A stretch of 64,000 nucleotides of DNA, taken from NCBI GenBank assembly GCA_964016885.1, contig OZ024749.1:39928001-39992000 (forward strand), written 5' to 3'. The notes under the pieces were generated by a model, which worked only from the letters and a program-made list of their open reading frames with translations, searched no databases and was not told where the DNA came from. This DNA is from Eledone cirrhosa. Its lineage: Eukaryota. Below, in pieces: positions 18,858-32,577 of this stretch (the stretch's first letter is position 1; the number at the start of each line of letters is the position of its first letter). The translations under genes and the position numbers were made by a program.

Positions 18858-19109
18858 TTATGTCAATTAACTCACTTCATTTTCAAGTACATTTCCTTTA
18901 ATTGTGTCTTTTTGTCTGTGTGTGTATATGTGTATGTAAATGTGTGACAATGTGTGTGTGTATATATGTGTGTACATATTTGTGTGTACGTGTGTATTCA
19001 TGTGTTTATGTATTTATATGTGTGTCTTTTTGTGCGTATATGTGTATATATATATGTGTATATATATTTGTGTGTGTAAGAGTGTGTCTACGTATTTGTT
19101 TGTCTGTAT

Positions 19110-19702
19110 TTGTGCGTATATGTGTATGCAAATGTGTGACAATGTGTGTGTGTGTGTATATATATATATGTGTGTTTGTGTGTATTTATGTGTGTGTGAG
19201 AGTATCAACATATTTGTTTGTGTGTTTCTGTGTGCATATATGTAAATGTGTGACAATGTGTGTGTGTGTGTATATATATATATGTTTGTGTGTATTTATG
19301 TGTGTGTGAGAGTATCAACATATTTGTTTGTGTCTTTCTGTGTGCATATATGCAAATGTGTGACAATGTGTGTGTGTGTGTATATATATATATGTGTGTT
19401 TGTGTGTATTTATGTGTGTGTGAGAGTATCAACATATTTGTTTGTGTGTTTCTGTGTGCATATATGTAAATGTGTGACAATGTGTGTGTGTGTGTATATA
19501 TATATATGTTTGTGTGTATTTATGTGTGTGTGAGAGTATCAACATATTTGTTTGTGTCTTTCTGTGTGCATATATGCAAATGTGTGACAATGTGTGTGTG
19601 TGTGTATATATATATATATGTTTGTGTGTATTTATGTGTGTGTGAGAGTATCAACATATTTGTTTGTGTGTTTCTGTGTGCATATATGTAAATGTGTGAC
19701 AA

Positions 19703-19733
<31 letters not shown>

Positions 19734-19932
19734 GTTTGTGTGTGTATTTATGTGTGTGTGAGAGTATCAACATATTTGTTTGTGTGTTTCTGTGTGCATA
19801 TATGCAAATGTGTGACAATGTGTGTGTGTGTGTATATATATATATATGTGTGTGTGTGTATTTATGTGTGTGTGAGAGTATCAACATATTTGTTTGTGTG
19901 TTTCTGTGTGCATATATGTAAATGTGTGACAA

Positions 19933-19963
<31 letters not shown>

Positions 19964-20048
19964 GTTTGTGTGTGTATTTATGTGTGTGTGAGAGTATCAA
20001 CATATTTGTTTGTGTCTTTCTGTGTGCATATATGCAAATGTGTGACAA

Positions 20049-20079
<31 letters not shown>

Positions 20080-20162
20080 GTTTGTGTGTATTTATGTGTG
20101 TGTGAGAGTATCAACATATTTGTTTGTGTGTTTCTGTGTGCATATATGTAAATGTGTGACAA

Positions 20163-20193
<31 letters not shown>

Positions 20194-20392
20194 GTTTGTG
20201 TGTGTATTTATGTGTGTGTGAGAGTATCAACATATTTGTTTGTGTGTTTCTGTGTGCATATATGCAAATGTGTGACAATGTGTGTGTGTGTGTATATATA
20301 TATATATGTGTGTGTGTGTATTTATGTGTGTGTGAGAGTATCAACATATTTGTTTGTGTGTTTCTGTGTGCATATATGTAAATGTGTGACAA

Positions 20393-20423
<31 letters not shown>

Positions 20424-20505
20424 GTTTGTGTGTGTATTTATGTGTGTGTGAGAGTATCAACATATTTGTTTGTGTCTTTCTGTGTGCATATATGCAAATG
20501 TGTGA

Positions 20506-20537
<32 letters not shown>

Positions 20538-20620
20538 GTTTGTGTGTATTTATGTGTGTGTGAGAGTATCAACATATTTGTTTGTGTGTTTCTGTGTGCA
20601 TATATGTAAATGTGTGGCAA
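19110..20620. repeat. ~114-bp tandem repeat built from TG/TA blocks
   Basis: Anchor gagagtatcaacatatttgtttg recurs every ~110-118 bp. Confidence 0.92.
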
Positions 20621-20709
20621 TGTGTGTGTATGTATGTTTAAGTGATTCTTTGAACGTATATGTATGGCAATGTGTGTCTATGTATTTGTTTTGGTGTTTT
20701 TGTATATGT

Positions 20710-23135: not shown

Positions 23136-23315
23136 GGATCGGACGCCATGCTTTGACGCATAGAGTTACGGCCCTTGTCATTCTGACTTCAAATCCCGCC
23201 GAGCTTAACTTTTTCCTTTCATCCTTACGGGGTCGATAAAATAAAGTACCAGTAATGCACTGGCTAATCGCTGGCCTTGTGCCTAAAGTAGAAACAATTA
23301 TTATTATTATTATCA
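23136..23315 (+). mobile_element. tRNA-derived SINE (major family), 5' truncated
   Basis: B-box-like ttcaaatccc, central ctttcatccttacggggtcgataaaataaagtaccag, (ATT)n tail. Confidence 0.85.
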
Positions 23316-26005: not shown

Positions 26006-26376
26006 GTGGTTATTGACGGAGGTGGCGGCAATCGTGATGGTGCGGTCATTATCATGATGATGCTTATGTGGATAATAATAATCATAATGATGATGATGAT
26101 GATGATGATGAAGACGACGATAGTGTTGATGACTGTGGTGATGATAATGTGCAACCGGAAGTCTCACATCTACATCCGGTAGGTGTATGTAAGCCCATTG
26201 TTATATCTACCAATTAGTTGTCTGTGTAACAAACCTTTACAACTGGCATCACTTGATATTTGTTACAAACGACGAGAACATTCTCTTTAGTAATCTATAT
26301 ATCTATCTTTCTACTTGTTCATCTCTCTATCTATCTATCACTCTATCTATCTATCTATCTATCTAAATATCTATCT

Positions 26377-26752
26377 TTTTTTCAAATACCACTTTGGAAG
26401 AAGAGTCAGGATGGAGAGAGAGGTGCTGTACCCCAGCAAGTTTTATGAAAGGTGGGTGAAAGTGGCGAGAATGGCCCGAGTGAATGGGCCTTCTCTCTAT
26501 ATCAGCCTGTAGGTTGAGGAAAAGAAGGAGGAGAGGAAAGGAGTACAAACTCTTCGTACTCCTGGAGATGAGGGTTGCACATTTTTTTTCGGGGGTATGT
26601 GTTACCCATATAAACTGTCTCCCTCTATTGGGGAAAATCGACTAACTTTTTAAATTCCATTTGTGATAACATTTTACACGTTTTTATTGTATGTAAACTT
26701 CCCCCTTTGTATTTGTCCCCTTCTTTTGTGCCCCTGTGGCTAATAAAGAAAT
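26377..26752 (+). mobile_element. 5'-truncated Tx1/L1 copy (last 44 codons of ORF2 plus 3' UTR), sister subfamily of the full-length element
   Basis: FFKYHFGRRVRMEREVLYPSKFYERWVKVARMARVNGPSLYISL* matches the ORF2 C-terminus at 37/44 residues. Ends gcccctgtggctaataaagaaat. (TATC)n on both sides. Confidence 0.93.
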
Positions 26753-26984
26753 ATATCTATCTATCTATCTATCTATCTATCTTGATAGAGTAAGACACGC
26801 TTCGCATCGGCTCCGCTATTCCATCGGGATTTACCCTTACTATTGTAAGTACCGGATAAATTTTTTAGTGCAACACATTTGGAACACTAACCCCTGTTAT
26901 TTAGGGAAACATTTTTGCATTTACCCCCTTTTTAGGGGGTAAAATAAATATCTATTTTTGCCGAAAAATTTCTTTCTTGGCAGC

Positions 26985-28373
26985 ATGGCGGAAAAGATGG
27001 CAGACATGTCTGCCATTAGCTCTGCCACGCCCCCCAAGTCTGAAGAACAAAAAATAATTACAACAAAATTAGACATTGAAACAAACAAACAAAATGAAAA
27101 AACAAATGTTAAGGAAAATGAGCAAACAGAAAACAAACAAACAGAAAATAATACAAATAACGACAGGGCAACTTTCGCCCAGAAAACAAAGCAATCCATT
27201 ACATACACACCAATTGACCTAACTGCCGCCAGAGAAAAACTGGCCGAAGCAAAGAAACATATTGTTTTGGGGGAAAACGGAATGTTTTCCATTAACTCCC
27301 CCCCAGAATTCAAGAAAGCCAGAGCAGAAAACACAGTTATATACAGAACTATACTAAACCAGTCAAGAAAGCCAGCACAGCCCAGCCAAATGGAAATAGA
27401 GTTAGTCCTAAAAGACTATATGAAGAATATTCTCTTCATACGAAAGGACCGACTCTATGGCAGCATTTCGGTCCTAACAAGAGACAAAGAAACGGCGGTT
27501 CAGCTTTCCCTAAGCCCACTCTCGTCGACAACATATAGCTTCTATCCCTCCTACATGGGTAGAAGAACACAGAGGGTAAAAGTAAAAACAATGCTGCCCA
27601 CAATGGACTTCTGGTGGGCTATTGCTGGCTTCATTGATATGGGCGAAGACACTATGCTGTCAATGGGGAAGGCAACTGGAGATGCGTTCCTGGGAATGGG
27701 CCTCGACATACTAGTCCAAATGAGGCCCGAAAGAATAGCACAAATCCCGGATCGCATCTGGCTGGATGACCTTACCCCAATAGACATAATTGTAGAGGGG
27801 AGAAGACCAGCATGCTATTTATGCATGGAAAGGGGACACGTTAAGGCTAACTGCCCGAAACGTATCCCCCAAAAAGGACTATTGCCCACACCCACCACAA
27901 ACAGTACACCAGCACCACCCACCTCCAAAAATACACTAATACCACACACAGCAAACAAAATACAGACACCACCAACCACAAACACAACACAAACATCACC
28001 ACCACCAGCACCAAACACAAGCACGACACAAAAATCACCACCACCAACCACAACACAAACATCACCACCACCATTACCAACCACAAGCACGACACAAACA
28101 TTACCACCACCACCACCACAAAACCCATTCCAAACAAATAATAAAAAAAACAGTAACAAATCTACCCCTCCCGCAAAAAAAAAACAACCACACAACACGT
28201 CCCTCCCACCTAGCGCTGAAGAGTTTCCCCCAACTTCTGAAGAAGAAGGAGGAGAAGCCTTCAGACAAGTTAAAAGAAAAAAAAAGAAAACACACACCCA
28301 GCACACCACAAATAACCCACACACAAACACCAACTCCAATCAAAAACACCCCACCCTCAACAAACAAAAATAA
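26985..28373 (+). CDS. ORF1 (gag-like nucleic-acid-binding protein), N-terminal part
   Basis: ATG at 26985 in strong Kozak context (agcATGG). CX2CX4HX4C knuckle CYLCMERGHVKANC, Pro/Thr-rich linker, basic KRKKK patch. Confidence 0.88.
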   Translation: MAEKMADMSAISSATPPKSEEQKIITTKLDIETNKQNEKTNVKENEQTENKQTENNTNNDRATFAQKTKQSITYTPIDLTAAREKLAEAKKHIVLGENGMFSINSPPEFKKARAENTVIYRTILNQSRKPAQPSQMEIELVLKDYMKNILFIRKDRLYGSISVLTRDKETAVQLSLSPLSSTTYSFYPSYMGRRTQRVKVKTMLPTMDFWWAIAGFIDMGEDTMLSMGKATGDAFLGMGLDILVQMRPERIAQIPDRIWLDDLTPIDIIVEGRRPACYLCMERGHVKANCPKRIPQKGLLPTPTTNSTPAPPTSKNTLIPHTANKIQTPPTTNTTQTSPPPAPNTSTTQKSPPPTTTQTSPPPLPTTSTTQTLPPPPPQNPFQTNNKKNSNKSTPPAKKKQPHNTSLPPSAEEFPPTSEEEGGEAFRQVKRKKKKTHTQHTTNNPHTNTNSNQKHPTLNKQK

Positions 28374-28821
28374 ATCTGCGCCTCCCCTCTCCGAAACATT
28401 GACAGCATCACAAAAAAAGACGTTGCAATACACATATATAAATAAAGAAAACAAAAAACTGGTTAAATTAATAAACAATAACCCTATGGTGCAGACCGAA
28501 GGGCCAAACTTTATCTCAACAGAGAACTTCACCCATTTAAAAATGATAAAGGTCCCTCTGGACCTTTATCGTTCCTTAAAAGAACAATTTAGACGGGACG
28601 TGAGCCCCCCCTGTTTAAAACCGTTGAATCGCGTCCTCTTGAAAGATTTCCCCATAACCGCCCCTCTCCCTGACACAACTCCAAATACCCCAACCCCACC
28701 ACACACGTGTACCCCCACACCACCACAAAACATCCCTCCACCCAACACACCTGATGCCATGGAAATTACGCAACCCGGAGAGGTAAGTGCTTTTCTTTCT
28801 TCACTTTCAACACCAAAATAG
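28286..28821 (+). CDS. Probable ORF1 C-terminal part in the +1 frame
   Basis: The frame of the 140-aa ORF is open back through the A-run at 28277-28285 (RKHTPSTPQITHTQTPTP...). Removing one A joins it to ORF1 to give ~611 aa. Confidence 0.7.
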
Positions 28822-28826
28822 ATCAA

Positions 28827-31800
28827 TTGAGAGTTGGCTGTTTGAACGCGCGTGGCCTGAGCTCAGCTTGGAAGCAAGCAAAGCTTCTAAGTGACCTCAG
28901 GTCACAAAGTATAGATGTGATGGTTGTTTGCGAGAGTCGGATCAGCAGCGTGAGACAGCTGGCGCCCGCCTTCGATGACTTTGAGATGCACGCATCTCTC
29001 TGTCAACCCGGAGGCGGGGGGGGAGTTGCCGTACTGCTGGATAAACGTCTGACTCTCGACGTACAGATTGTTCACTCGGACCCGGGGGGTCGATTACTGG
29101 TGCTGGACGTCGGAGGTGGTGAAGGCGGGGCTTTCAGACTGATCGGTCTTTATGCTCCCTTCGGGGCGGAGAGAGCCGACTTCTTCCAACGTCTGGAGAC
29201 TTTTCTAGGAACGTCGCGTTCCCTGCTTTTAGTGGGGGACTGGAATGGAATCCTAGATGCGCGTTGGGACTATGCAGGGGCATGTCCCGATAGAGGGGGG
29301 TGTAGCAGCCTCAAGGGGTTACTCGATCGATTCGACCTGGTCGATAGATTTCGACTAGATTGTCCAACTGCGCCAACCTGGACCTGGGCAAACCGCAGTG
29401 GACAATCTAGATCGTACCTAGATAGGTTTTTGGTTAGGAGTAAGGATAGGGACGTATTTAGTTGTCCAGAACTGATCATGGTTGGCTATTCAGATCACAA
29501 ATTAGTGACCTGCGTGGTCAACCTTGATAGAACGCATAGACAGGGTCCCGGTTACTGGAAGATGAACTTGTCCTTACCGACAAAGAAAGATTACAGAAAC
29601 CGGATTAGTAGCTTAGTTAAGATGCGGTTGACGGGAGCGATCGTCAACAGTAGGTGGTGGATATCTCTAAAGAGAGAGATTAGAGTAAGTTCGATAGGTT
29701 ACAGTAAGGAACTAGCGGCGAATAGAAATAGGAGGGAAAGGGAGTTAACAGATAAACTAGAAGAGGCGATTAGGAGCGGAGACGTAGCCAGAGTGTTAGC
29801 GACGAGAACGGCATTGAGCCAGTTCTTTGACGCGAAGCACGAAGGCTGCGTTGTCCGAAGTAAAATACGTGCTTTAGGAAACGAGGGGACCAAAGCTGTT
29901 AGCTGGGCCCGCGTGACAGAAGCCAAGAGTGGGATTAAATCCACCATTCGGTCTTTGCGAGACCAGGATGGACGGGTGATCCTTGAACCTGAGCGAATGT
30001 GCGAGACCTTTCAAAGGCACTTTGCTCGACTGTTCGGAGGTGGCGGGGGGCCGGACGGGGATGTGGACTTCGGTCCATACCTCGACGGTCTACCGCGTCT
30101 TTCGAGCGGCGAAGCGGAGTGCTGCGAAGGGCCAATCACAGCCACTGAAATCGGGGAAGCGCTCAGCCAATGCAGCAGACGCAAATCCCCGGGTCTCGAT
30201 GGTCTACCATACGAACTTTATTTAGCTATGCCGGTCTTGTTCTCCGAACTCCTCGAGGCTGTCTATTGCAACTGGCAACAGAACGGGAGAATTCCCTGTT
30301 CTGTGACCAAGGGCGTGGTCACGCTAGTGAGGAAGGACGAGAGCAAGGGGGACGACTTAAGTAACTTTAGGCCCATAACTCTGCTGAATGCAGAGTTACA
30401 GATTTTGGCCAAGGTGTTGGCGAAGAGGTTGGCGCTTGTGGTGGGTGGTTTGGTGGGAGACGCGCAGACATGCGCTATCCCGTCCAGGTCCATTCACGAC
30501 AACCTCCACCTCATGCGATACATCATAGAGAGGGTTGGCTACGAACCCGGCTTTGGTGGGGCCCTGATCAACTTGGATCAATCTAAAGCGTTCGATAGGG
30601 TCGACCATGGTTACCTGGATGCGGTGCTAGCGGCGGCGGGCTTCGGACCCGTTTTCAGGGGCTGGATTTCTGCCATGCACAGTGGCAACATCTACTCTAG
30701 GATTAAAGTAAACGGCTACCTCTCGGAGCCGTTTCAAATCACCCGATCCATCAGACAGGGGTGCCCCCTCTCCTCCCTTCTGTACGTATTGACTCTCGAG
30801 CCACTGCTGCGGAAGTTGGAGTTGCTGCGGGGCATACCCCTGGAACCGGGATTGCACAAAGCGGTCTCGGCCTATGCCGACGACGTAACAGTAATGGTGG
30901 CGGACGCCTCGGAAATCGGGGCGATCGCCACCCTACTGGAGGAATACGAAAGGCTGACGGGGGCTAAGCTGAACCAGGACAAGTCAGTCGGTTTGCAACT
31001 CGGAACGTGGAGGGGCAAACCGATGCCGTTAGACGGTGTCGTCGGGCGGTGGACGGAGGGCCCGGTGAAGCTGCTCGGGGTCTGGTTCGGACCGGACCTC
31101 CAGGTGGAGAAGAATTGGGGCGAGGTGACGAGCAGGGTGTTTGCGCTGACCCAGAAGTGGGCCAAGTGCAAACTATCACTGAAAGGTCGGGCGGAGGTGA
31201 CGAACGCTTACATAGCGTCCGTCATCTACTACCGCCTGACCGTCGTGCCTTGCCCCAAGGAAAAGCTCACCATCATGGAACGCATGCTCTTCCAGTTCCT
31301 CTGGAAGAAGCGGCCTCCCATGGTGAGGAGATCCATCTGCTGCCAGCACCCTTCGAAAGGAGGGCTGGGTATGCCGTGGCTGTTGATGCGTAGGCACGCA
31401 TTGAGGCTACGGCATCTACAGGTATTCCTCAACGGTCAGCCGGTGTGGGCCCCGTTTGTGAGGCGAGCCTTCCCACAGCTCGTCTCGCTCACCGAACTGC
31501 AATCCTGGGTGAAGCAAAGACCGAGAAAACTGGGCAACTGGCACACTGAGTGTGCCCAGGCGCTCACGGCTATCTGGCAAGCGGACCCGACTGTCAGTGG
31601 AGAATCCACCTCGACATTCTATAGAGGGTTGGTGGCTAGCAGGGGCGACGACACCCTTGGAGAGTCGCTAGGCATGGAGGAGGACGAACTGGCCAGCCTG
31701 TTCGGTAGAACTTTCGGCCCGGGACCCATGGACAACTTCCAGAGGTCCCTAGCCTGGCAGTGTTACCGGGGGGCTCTGCCCGTTCGAGAAAAGCTCTACA

Positions 31801-32255
31801 GACACGGGCGCCCGGGCAGGGATCCCGCGAAAAAGATCTGTCCCAGATGCGTGCGCGACGAGGAAACCGTTGCGCATGCACTGGTACACTGCCCGGGCGT
31901 TGCCGATCTGTGGGGCTACGTCGAACGACTGCTGTCGCGTGTGGCGCCGATTCGATTAACCGCCGAGTCTGTGGTGAACATCAAGCCGCCTCCTCCCTTC
32001 AGAAATGAAGCAGAGGCGGTCTTTCTGTGCGTAATAGCCATGATGAAAGAGGTTGTGTGGTGGACGCGCCTGAAAGGTCTGAGGTCGGGTGACTTTCTCT
32101 CCGGCCATCACCTGGTTTACTTCTTCCGATACCACTTCGGAAGAAGAATCAGGATGGAGAGAGAAGTGCTTGGTCCCAGACAGTTTTATGAAAGGTGGGT
32201 GAAAGAAGCGAGAATGGCCCGTGTAAATGGGCCTTCTCTCTACATTGTTCTGTAG
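28827..32255 (+). CDS. ORF2: AP endonuclease, reverse transcriptase and C-terminal CCHC zinc finger
   Basis: APE motifs LNARGL, YAP, GDWN, YLDRFL, SDH. RT motifs KSPGLDG, FRPITLLN, DQSKAFDRVDH, RQGCPLS, YADD. C-terminal CPRC...ETVAHALVHC. Uninterrupted 1142-codon frame. Confidence 0.97.
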   Translation: MRVGCLNARGLSSAWKQAKLLSDLRSQSIDVMVVCESRISSVRQLAPAFDDFEMHASLCQPGGGGGVAVLLDKRLTLDVQIVHSDPGGRLLVLDVGGGEGGAFRLIGLYAPFGAERADFFQRLETFLGTSRSLLLVGDWNGILDARWDYAGACPDRGGCSSLKGLLDRFDLVDRFRLDCPTAPTWTWANRSGQSRSYLDRFLVRSKDRDVFSCPELIMVGYSDHKLVTCVVNLDRTHRQGPGYWKMNLSLPTKKDYRNRISSLVKMRLTGAIVNSRWWISLKREIRVSSIGYSKELAANRNRRERELTDKLEEAIRSGDVARVLATRTALSQFFDAKHEGCVVRSKIRALGNEGTKAVSWARVTEAKSGIKSTIRSLRDQDGRVILEPERMCETFQRHFARLFGGGGGPDGDVDFGPYLDGLPRLSSGEAECCEGPITATEIGEALSQCSRRKSPGLDGLPYELYLAMPVLFSELLEAVYCNWQQNGRIPCSVTKGVVTLVRKDESKGDDLSNFRPITLLNAELQILAKVLAKRLALVVGGLVGDAQTCAIPSRSIHDNLHLMRYIIERVGYEPGFGGALINLDQSKAFDRVDHGYLDAVLAAAGFGPVFRGWISAMHSGNIYSRIKVNGYLSEPFQITRSIRQGCPLSSLLYVLTLEPLLRKLELLRGIPLEPGLHKAVSAYADDVTVMVADASEIGAIATLLEEYERLTGAKLNQDKSVGLQLGTWRGKPMPLDGVVGRWTEGPVKLLGVWFGPDLQVEKNWGEVTSRVFALTQKWAKCKLSLKGRAEVTNAYIASVIYYRLTVVPCPKEKLTIMERMLFQFLWKKRPPMVRRSICCQHPSKGGLGMPWLLMRRHALRLRHLQVFLNGQPVWAPFVRRAFPQLVSLTELQSWVKQRPRKLGNWHTECAQALTAIWQADPTVSGESTSTFYRGLVASRGDDTLGESLGMEEDELASLFGRTFGPGPMDNFQRSLAWQCYRGALPVREKLYRHGRPGRDPAKKICPRCVRDEETVAHALVHCPGVADLWGYVERLLSRVAPIRLTAESVVNIKPPPPFRNEAEAVFLCVIAMMKEVVWWTRLKGLRSGDFLSGHHLVYFFRYHFGRRIRMEREVLGPRQFYERWVKEARMARVNGPSLYIVL

Positions 32256-32503
32256 GTGAAGAAGTGAAGAGGAAAGGGGGAGCGCCTCCTCTCTGGGCTT
32301 CCCCCGCGAAAAGAGTTGCACACTTTTCGGGGGTATGTGCAATCCCCAACACGCCCCCTCCCTTTTGAGGACTTTTTATTGTTATATTATTATTGTTATT
32401 CCTTTTTTCTTTACTCGATTTATGTAAACTCCCCCACTGTGTAAATGTCCCCTTCTTTTGTGCCCTCGTGGCAAATAAATAGAAATTTATCTATCTGTCT
32501 ATT

Positions 32504-32577
<74 letters not shown>

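What the first reader, a model, noticed from the sequence alone, without database searches (positions are those of the whole stretch)
26325..32505. Tx1-clade retrotransposons stacked in a (TATC)n microsatellite: candidate new target specificity
Seen: the order is (TATC)n, truncated copy, (TATC)n, full-length copy, TATCTATC. Both copies are in the same orientation and neither has a poly(A) tail. They are distinct subfamilies (37/44 aa identical, partly diverged 3' UTRs), so they are independent insertions into one tract. Known: Tx1-group elements include sequence-specific families (Kibi and Koshi in TCC/TTC-type repeats, Keno in U2 snRNA, Dewa near tRNA genes), and in APE-type elements specificity is attributed largely to the endonuclease. 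Inference: a GATA/TATC-tetranucleotide-specific lineage with an open ORF2, i.e. a candidate site-specific integration enzyme. I cannot confirm it is absent from Repbase or Dfam.
Basis: partly seen in the sequence, partly recalled or inferred. Interest (0 to 1): 0.72.

Follow-up and report, generated by a model that had tools for sequence, protein, structure and literature searches.

The report
Retrotransposon lineage targeting TATC microsatellites
A young, abundant jumping gene in this animal genome lands mostly in TATC repeats while close cousins sit in ATT repeats, which likely makes the pair a ready test of how such genes choose a landing site; repeat-seeking jumping genes are known, but I did not find this repeat described as a target.

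Summary
Confirmed, with corrections; the scan noted this family before on other DNA of this genome (e1-9510316, e1-9556944). The window holds a truncated family-B copy and a full-length family-A copy of an L1/Tx1-group LINE in one TATC tract. The 3' end abuts TATC in 40 of 40 family-A copies. TATC is target, not only tail: 46 of 67 5'-truncated copies of four other subfamilies have a TATC run at the 5' junction (background 0.28% per position), and 8 of 63 carry target duplications with non-repeat letters (14 of 3906 mismatched pairs). Targeting is strong, not absolute. Full-length copies also bring about 20 nt of repeat on their own 5' end, so RNA-DNA pairing probably assists the endonuclease. 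Sister lineages, 67-68% identical in ORF2, sit in (ATT)n instead (40 of 40 3' ends; 19 of 20 5' ends). Family A is young: 39 of 40 full length, 13 of 39 with both ORFs intact. The window copy's ORF1 is frameshifted and ORF2 has AUA where relatives have AUG. I found no paper naming TATC as a target; Repbase and Dfam could not be checked. Tx1 membership is likely but untested by phylogeny.

The parts
26293..26376 (+). degenerate (TATC)n tract, the pre-existing target
   Evidence: TRF period 4, 21 copies, 72% matches
26374..26753 (+). 5'-truncated family-B copy (last 44 codons of ORF2 and 3' UTR); TCT microhomology at its 5' junction
   Evidence: 99.2% identical to a full-length 5.84-kb B copy
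26754..26782 (+). 29-nt perfect TATC run: B's 3' target junction plus repeat probably brought in by A's 5' end
   Evidence: 24 of 39 full-length A copies have 19-29 nt here
26783..32487 (+). full-length family-A LINE, 5.7 kb
   Evidence: 39 of 40 fetched copies start and end at the same bases, 98.7-99.9% identical
26985..28821 (+). ORF1 (611 aa in intact copies, weak CCHC knuckle); frameshifted in this copy at the A run 28277-28285
28783..28788 (+). splice-donor-like GTAAGT just before ORF2, conserved as GT(A/G)(A/G)GT in seven families; function untested
28818..32255 (+). ORF2 from ATA (overlapping ORF1's stop): APE endonuclease about 28875-29498, RT about 30351-31085, zf-RVT about 31746-31913
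32474..32479 (+). AATAAA, 8 nt before the element's end
   Evidence: same position in all related 3' ends
32488..32496 (+). TATCTATCT, 3' target junction; matches the 9 nt at B's 5' junction, so probably B's original target duplication

Best explanation
This is a young, high-copy L1/Tx1-group LINE lineage that inserts preferentially and in one orientation into (TATC)n, likely by its endonuclease nicking the GATA strand while TATC repeats carried on both ends of its RNA likely pair with the target. Shown: TATC at 3' junctions, TATC at most 5' junctions of truncated copies, target duplications of 5 to about 35 bp that begin at TATC, extra repeat at the 5' end of full-length copies, same-strand stacking, and sister lineages on (ATT)n. 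Inferred: (1) transcription starts in the upstream repeat and, with AAUAAA only 6-8 nt from the end, is cleaved inside the downstream repeat, so the RNA is (UAUC)n-element-(UAUC)n; (2) the endonuclease nicks the GATA strand and the freed 3' end pairs with the RNA's UAUC tail to prime reverse transcription, which is why no poly(A) is copied; (3) a loosely placed second nick 5-35 bp away gives the duplication; (4) full-length cDNA ends in GATA repeats and anneals to the upstream TATC, giving an invariant junction, while truncated cDNA joins by short microhomology; (5) each insertion leaves new target on both sides, so copies stack.
For: 3' junction TATC in 40 of 40 A copies and 124 of 130 lineage 3' ends. 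Truncated copies with a TATC run of 5 nt or more at the 5' junction: B 18/24, C 12/15, D 3/7, E 13/21, plus 9 of 12 longer ones; background 0.28%. Duplications with shared non-repeat letters: 8 of 63 own pairs against 14 of 3906 mismatched pairs; lone TATCT sites duplicated in L135 and L153. RNA-borne 5' repeat: 5' run of 19-29 nt in 24 of 39 full-length A copies against 6 of 43 truncated; at sites with a 3' run of 10 nt or less, median 23.5 against 10 nt, P=0.008; an inherited variant TCTCTATC in 10 of 15 B heads; L110 has a 21-bp duplication plus three extra ATCT. Stacking: 18 of 39 A copies directly follow a lineage 3' end; 16 of 30 have lineage DNA within 1.5 kb downstream, first hit on the same strand in all 16. 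Control: sister lineages end in (ATT)n in 40 of 40 and begin after ATTATT in 19 of 20; TATC families form one clade, FastTree support 1.0. Catalytic motifs align with human L1 ORF2p; the model matches L1-EN, TM 0.8.
Against: 21 of 67 truncated copies have no TATC run at the 5' junction under the strict rule; for 9 such copies no same-strand remainder was found in 10 kb upstream, so they are off-target insertions or deletions. One miss (L150) is an interrupted full-length copy. The 57 distinct full-length A junctions are not independent evidence, because their 5' repeat is partly element-borne. Only one locus among 15 testable full-length A copies shows an informative duplication. No empty site, RNA or enzyme assay was obtained. 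Copies were the best-scoring hits, mostly from the largest contigs, not a random sample. Truncated and full-length sets come from different subfamilies of different age.
Confidence: 0.72

Rival explanations
1. The endonuclease alone sets the target, and the repeats at RNA ends are by-products.
For: Tx1L endonuclease nicks almost only at its target (PMC1950540, passages). 19 endonuclease columns separate TATC from ATT families, one at the hairpin loop tip, S against I. Duplications start at TATC even where the flank leaves the repeat after 5-7 nt.
Against: Inherited 5' repeat variant and excess 5' repeat. Diagnostic columns are as dense near the C-terminus (17 per 100 aa) as in the first 100 aa (12), and two clades give only one contrast.
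Confidence: 0.15
2. A loosely specific endonuclease nicks many AT-rich sites, and pairing of the RNA's UAUC tail selects which nicks are used; the ATT to ATCT switch would then be a change in the RNA.
For: About 30% of truncated copies lack 5' TATC yet all end in TATC; ATCT and ATT differ by one inserted base; PMC1950540 (passages) names RNA-target pairing as a possible extra constraint.
Against: Only 5-7 nt of pairing are available at lone sites (L135, L153, L306), which is weak selection by itself; two long-lived clades keep distinct targets.
Confidence: 0.1
3. TATC is only a tail, and copies accumulate passively in a microsatellite-rich genome.
For: The window has 210 tandem-repeat rows; LINEs with microsatellite tails are known (PMC13295347, passages).
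Against: 5' flanks of truncated copies, informative duplications, single orientation, and ATT-bound sisters in the same genome.
Confidence: 0.03

Closest known systems
Kibi (TC)n and Koshi (TTC)n of teleosts; crocodilian Tx1 families on (TTCC)n/(TTTC)n (PMC4494074, passages and section 15 read)
   Same: L1/Tx1-group APE LINEs that insert into microsatellites
   Different: Repeat unit is TATC, with sisters on ATT; neither is among the Tx1 targets in the text I read (figure 3 labels and supplement not visible). Host is probably an octopod, not a vertebrate.
Waldo (ACAY), Mino (AC), Dong (TAA) (PMC3812793, passages read)
   Same: Microsatellite-specific non-LTR elements; Waldo's target is a tetranucleotide
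   Different: Other clades (R1 for Waldo and Mino by the cited paper's title; R4 for Dong, recalled). No GATA/TATC target in that list.
Tx1L of Xenopus laevis (PMC1950540, passages; PMC85248 not held)
   Same: Sequence-specific APE element; top fold match of the endonuclease model is the L1-EN chimera with the Tx1L loop (2v0r), marginally ahead of L1-EN
   Different: Targets a DNA transposon, not a microsatellite
Human L1 (PDB 8uw3)
   Same: APE-RT-zinc finger ORF2, E 1.5e-49; variable target duplications; short 5' microhomology
   Different: Here no poly(A), CCHC-type ORF1, overlapping ORFs, and 39 of 40 family-A copies full length
Octopus vulgaris 'L1-Tx1' families (PMC13282606, passages and one supplement row)
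   Same: 13 recently active L1-Tx1 families, 80 in all, in an octopod; may include this lineage
   Different: The paper has no occurrence of 'target' or 'GATA'

Membership tests
L1 group, APE-type non-LTR retrotransposon | APE endonuclease N-terminal to RT, C-terminal zinc finger | tested here: met
   Pfam PF03372, PF00078, PF13966; L1 ORF2p E 1.5e-49 against R2 1e-22; fold matches L1-EN
L1 group, APE-type non-LTR retrotransposon | Target-site duplication and 5' truncation, as left by target-primed reverse transcription | tested here: met
Tx1 clade | RT phylogeny groups with Tx1L, Kibi, Koshi, Keno | not testable with these tools
   No named Tx1 protein was returned; the tree has only unnamed relatives and one plant L1
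Tx1 clade | ORF1 of RRM/zf-CCHC type, not Transposase_22 (PMC5203782) | tested here: inconclusive
   One CCHC knuckle at E 0.014, below cut-off; no RRM and no Transposase_22 hit
Tx1 clade | Target preference: one sequence type in more than 20% of flanks (criterion of PMC4494074) | tested here: met
   46 of 67 truncated 5' junctions; 40 of 40 3' junctions
Kibi / Koshi / crocodilian TTCC-TTTC group | Target is (TC)n, (TTC)n, (TTCC)n or (TTTC)n | tested here: not met
   Junctions are TATC, sisters ATT
Sequence-specific endonuclease | Isolated enzyme nicks the target in vitro | not testable with these tools
   Needs a nicking assay

The most novel reading that the evidence does not exclude
An undescribed (TATC)n-specific LINE lineage arose beside (ATT)n-specific sisters by a one-base change of target. 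Both are active now with intact ORF2s, and they aim by a two-part code of endonuclease plus target repeats on both RNA ends, which yields almost only full-length insertions and could be reprogrammed by swapping the RNA ends.
Probability: 0.3. Interest if true: 0.72.

Novelty: new variant of a known kind. Interest (0 to 1): 0.5.

Why it matters
A review says the mechanism of microsatellite targeting by APE-type elements is not well understood (PMC3812793, passage). Two young sister clades, 67-68% identical with intact ORF2s and targets one base apart (ATT, ATCT), let one swap endonuclease, loop or RNA ends and read the target. A LINE that inserts 5.7 kb nearly always full length into a defined repeat would also interest gene-insertion work. 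If the family is already in Repbase with this target, only the mechanistic details are new.

Tried and rejected
Empty-site test by reads was not obtained. No RNA holder was listed. Contigs laid on 28450-32500 showed no joint from 28782 to 32256 among the 15 of 441 joint rows shown: inconclusive on splicing. Homolog searches gave no named Tx1 protein; the only close named hit is Argonauta hians, 63%. Metagenome scans: nothing, then 80 loci at 23-40% identity that were too distant to inform on target and were not analysed. The treekit run did not finish; FastTree was used, leaving out partial proteins P0075 and P0076. My first 'informative duplication' rule was too loose (21 of 67 against 8.4% control) and was replaced. 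The idea that misses are copies split by later insertions failed for 9 of 9 checked. A splice from the donor to a nearby acceptor does not fuse ORF1 to ORF2 in frame (read). The head of A is the reverse complement of the target, but the predicted hairpin is weak, -6.9 kcal/mol. Paper searches for a GATA/TATC target returned none; searches listed no paper naming it. Supplement of PMC4494074 and paper PMC85248 were unavailable.

Full report
OBSERVATION. The window is G000:C9:39928001-39992000 in a 3.0-Gb assembly. Both copies are on the same strand, lack poly(A) and end in AATAAA plus 6-8 nt. Their last 44 residues differ at 7 positions. ORF2 has APE endonuclease, RT and zf-RVT domains; ORF1 has one weak CCHC knuckle. 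The best solved relative is human L1 ORF2p, E 1.5e-49, with the catalytic motifs aligned. A model of the endonuclease (pLDDT 82.6) matches L1-EN structures at TM about 0.8. The only close named homolog is from Argonauta hians, 63%, so the host is probably an octopod (inference).

FAMILY A IS YOUNG AND MOSTLY WHOLE. A 341-nt 3' query gave 2234 candidates, of which the 40 scored were 100% identical; a 5' query gave 659. Candidates are not copy numbers. Of those 40, 39 are full length at 98.7-99.9% identity; the other joins a related subfamily at its 5' side. Both ORFs are intact in 13 of 39. Intact copies have a 611-aa ORF1; the window copy has nine A's instead of eight at 28277-28285 and its ORF1 is frameshifted. 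ORF2 has ATA overlapping ORF1's stop in 39 of 40 copies, where six related families have ATG. Non-AUG reinitiation is known for human L1 ORF2 (recalled), so this need not inactivate it.

TARGET OR TAIL. All 40 A copies have TATC at the 3' junction, as do 124 of 130 lineage 3' ends found in the loci (many lie in stacks, so they are not independent). All 57 distinct full-length A 5' junctions end in ATCT (30, 39, 12 shared), but this is not independent evidence, as shown below. The clean test is truncated copies, which have lost their own head. I searched four other subfamilies with their 3' UTRs and mapped 5' boundaries. A TATC-phase run of 5 nt or more lies within 2 nt of the junction in B 18/24, C 12/15, D 3/7 and E 13/21, 46 of 67 in all, and in 9 of 12 further copies truncated at 2-4 kb. 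Background is 0.28% per position in the rest of the window, at most three times that for three offsets. Dropped before counting: tandem duplicates (L065, L066, L249, L250, L267) and copies with internal deletions, chimeras or unresolved boundaries (L132, L136, L146, L276-L278, L283, L291, L293, L326). One counted miss, L150, proved to be an interrupted full-length copy. For 9 other misses no same-strand remainder was found in 10 kb upstream, so they are off-target insertions or deletions. Targeting is a strong preference, not absolute.

TARGET DUPLICATIONS. Pure repeats hide duplications, so I looked for ones that share non-repeat letters. With four more tandem rows removed, 8 of 63 truncated copies show one, against 14 of 3906 mismatched 5'/3' pairs (binomial P 9e-11; 38 of the 63 had a 3' flank that leaves the repeat within 16 nt, and 7 of the 8 are among them). 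Examples: L306 TATCTGTTTGTATC, L313 TATCTATATATATAG. Lone TATCT sites are duplicated in L135 and L153. Duplications run from 5 to about 35 bp, start at TATC and end freely, often with a few nt of microhomology. That fits a sequence-fixed first nick and a loose second nick (inference). The exact nick cannot be placed, because the RNA probably carries the repeat.

REPEAT CARRIED ON THE RNA. Full-length A copies have a 5' run of 19-29 nt in 24 of 39 cases, against 6 of 43 truncated copies; where the 3' run is 10 nt or less the medians are 23.5 and 10 nt (P=0.008; different subfamilies, so age is a confounder). Ten of 15 full-length B heads share a variant repeat, TCTCTATC, which must be inherited. 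L110 shows a 21-bp duplication followed by three extra ATCT. Only that locus among 15 testable full-length A copies has an informative duplication, as expected if the junction forms by annealing in pure repeat. At the 3' end, AATAAA sits 6-8 nt before the repeat in every family; cleavage normally falls 10-30 nt downstream (recalled), i.e. inside the repeat. I infer an RNA flanked by UAUC repeats that pair with the target at both junctions. No RNA data were available.

STACKING. 18 of 39 A copies directly follow another lineage 3' end. 16 of 30 have lineage DNA within 1.5 kb downstream, the first hit on the same strand in all 16 and within 120 nt in 13. In the window, B's 9-nt duplication appears split by the later A insertion (inference).

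SISTER CONTROL. Searching the genome with two outside homologs retrieved other lineages with stop-free ORF2s, 66-68% identical to A. All 40 end in AATAAA, a short spacer and (ATT)n; 19 of 20 checked 5' ends follow ATTATT, and one had no head. On a FastTree tree the four TATC families form one clade (support 1.0) beside the ATT clade (0.97). So the flank depends on the family, not on genome composition. Nineteen endonuclease columns separate the clades, one at the tip of the hairpin loop that PMC1950540 (passages) links to target selectivity; diagnostic columns are as dense near the C-terminus, and two clades give one contrast only.

COMPARISON WITH WHAT IS KNOWN. Microsatellite-targeting Tx1 families are known: Kibi (TC)n, Koshi (TTC)n, crocodilian (TTCC)n and (TTTC)n (PMC4494074, passages and section 15). 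A review lists ACAY, AC, TC, TTC and TAA targets and calls the mechanism poorly understood (PMC3812793, passages). An O. vulgaris annotation counts 13 recently active L1-Tx1 families without mention of targets (PMC13282606, passages and one supplement row). PMC9115989 has no mention of Tx1. Searches listed no paper naming a TATC/GATA target. Repbase, Dfam, most subscription journals, figure 3 labels and the supplement of PMC4494074 were not visible and could overturn the novelty. It works like Kibi and Koshi and meets Kojima's 20% criterion; it is not one of them by target; Tx1 membership is likely but was not tested by phylogeny.

EARLIER NOTES OF THIS SCAN. The family and its ATT cousins were noted on other pieces of this genome. 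I tested both claims here with far more copies. The splice-signal and zipper leads were checked in part: a donor-like GT(A/G)(A/G)GT precedes ORF2 in seven families, and the regions around ORF2's start and stop form a predicted duplex of -56.4 kcal/mol against a mean of -25 and a minimum of -37.6 for 300 random ORF2 segments, not matched for composition. No spliced form was seen (inconclusive).

VERDICT. Real feature. Preferential insertion into (TATC)n: about 0.95. Combined endonuclease and RNA-pairing mechanism: 0.72. Target undescribed in any database: about 0.55. New variant of a known kind; interest 0.5.

Noticed in passing
window 28783-28788 and 32250-32255: Donor-like GTAAGT before ORF2 and acceptor-like CTGTAG at its stop; removal would leave ORF1 with a new stop. 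The two regions are also complementary (-56.4 kcal/mol). The donor is conserved in seven families; two ATT families end in CTGTAA, not AG.
   Followed up: partly
window 28818-28821: ORF2 start is ATA overlapping ORF1's TAG in the youngest family, while relatives have ATG.
   Followed up: partly
window 26783-26790; L133:1173-1180 region: Family A's first 8 nt (TGATAGAG) are the exact reverse complement of family B's head (CTCTATCA); possibly an old inversion at the 5' end.
   Followed up: partly
L091-L130: 39 of 40 family-A copies are full length, unusually high for an L1-type element; B, C and E are often truncated.
   Followed up: partly
window 525-13399: 51-bp tandem array, 252 copies, 95% matches; several frames are stop-free for thousands of codons, and one minus-strand frame reads as a Thr/Pro-rich mucin-like repeat. 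Satellite or coding exon not resolved.
   Followed up: partly
window 19031-20633: 114/230-bp satellite built from TG and TA microsatellites.
   Followed up: no
window 23240-23310; L369:476-546: A short repeat with an (ATT)n tail, probably a SINE; a similar copy is the 5' flank of an ATT-family insertion.
   Followed up: no
L150:7015-7090: A B copy's TATC tail turns directly into a long (GATA)n run on the same strand.
   Followed up: no
sequencing runs X5, X6: Runs labelled as other organisms hold 0.49 and 0.38 of family A's sampled words, some contigs without differences: close relatives of the host share the family, or labels differ.
   Followed up: no
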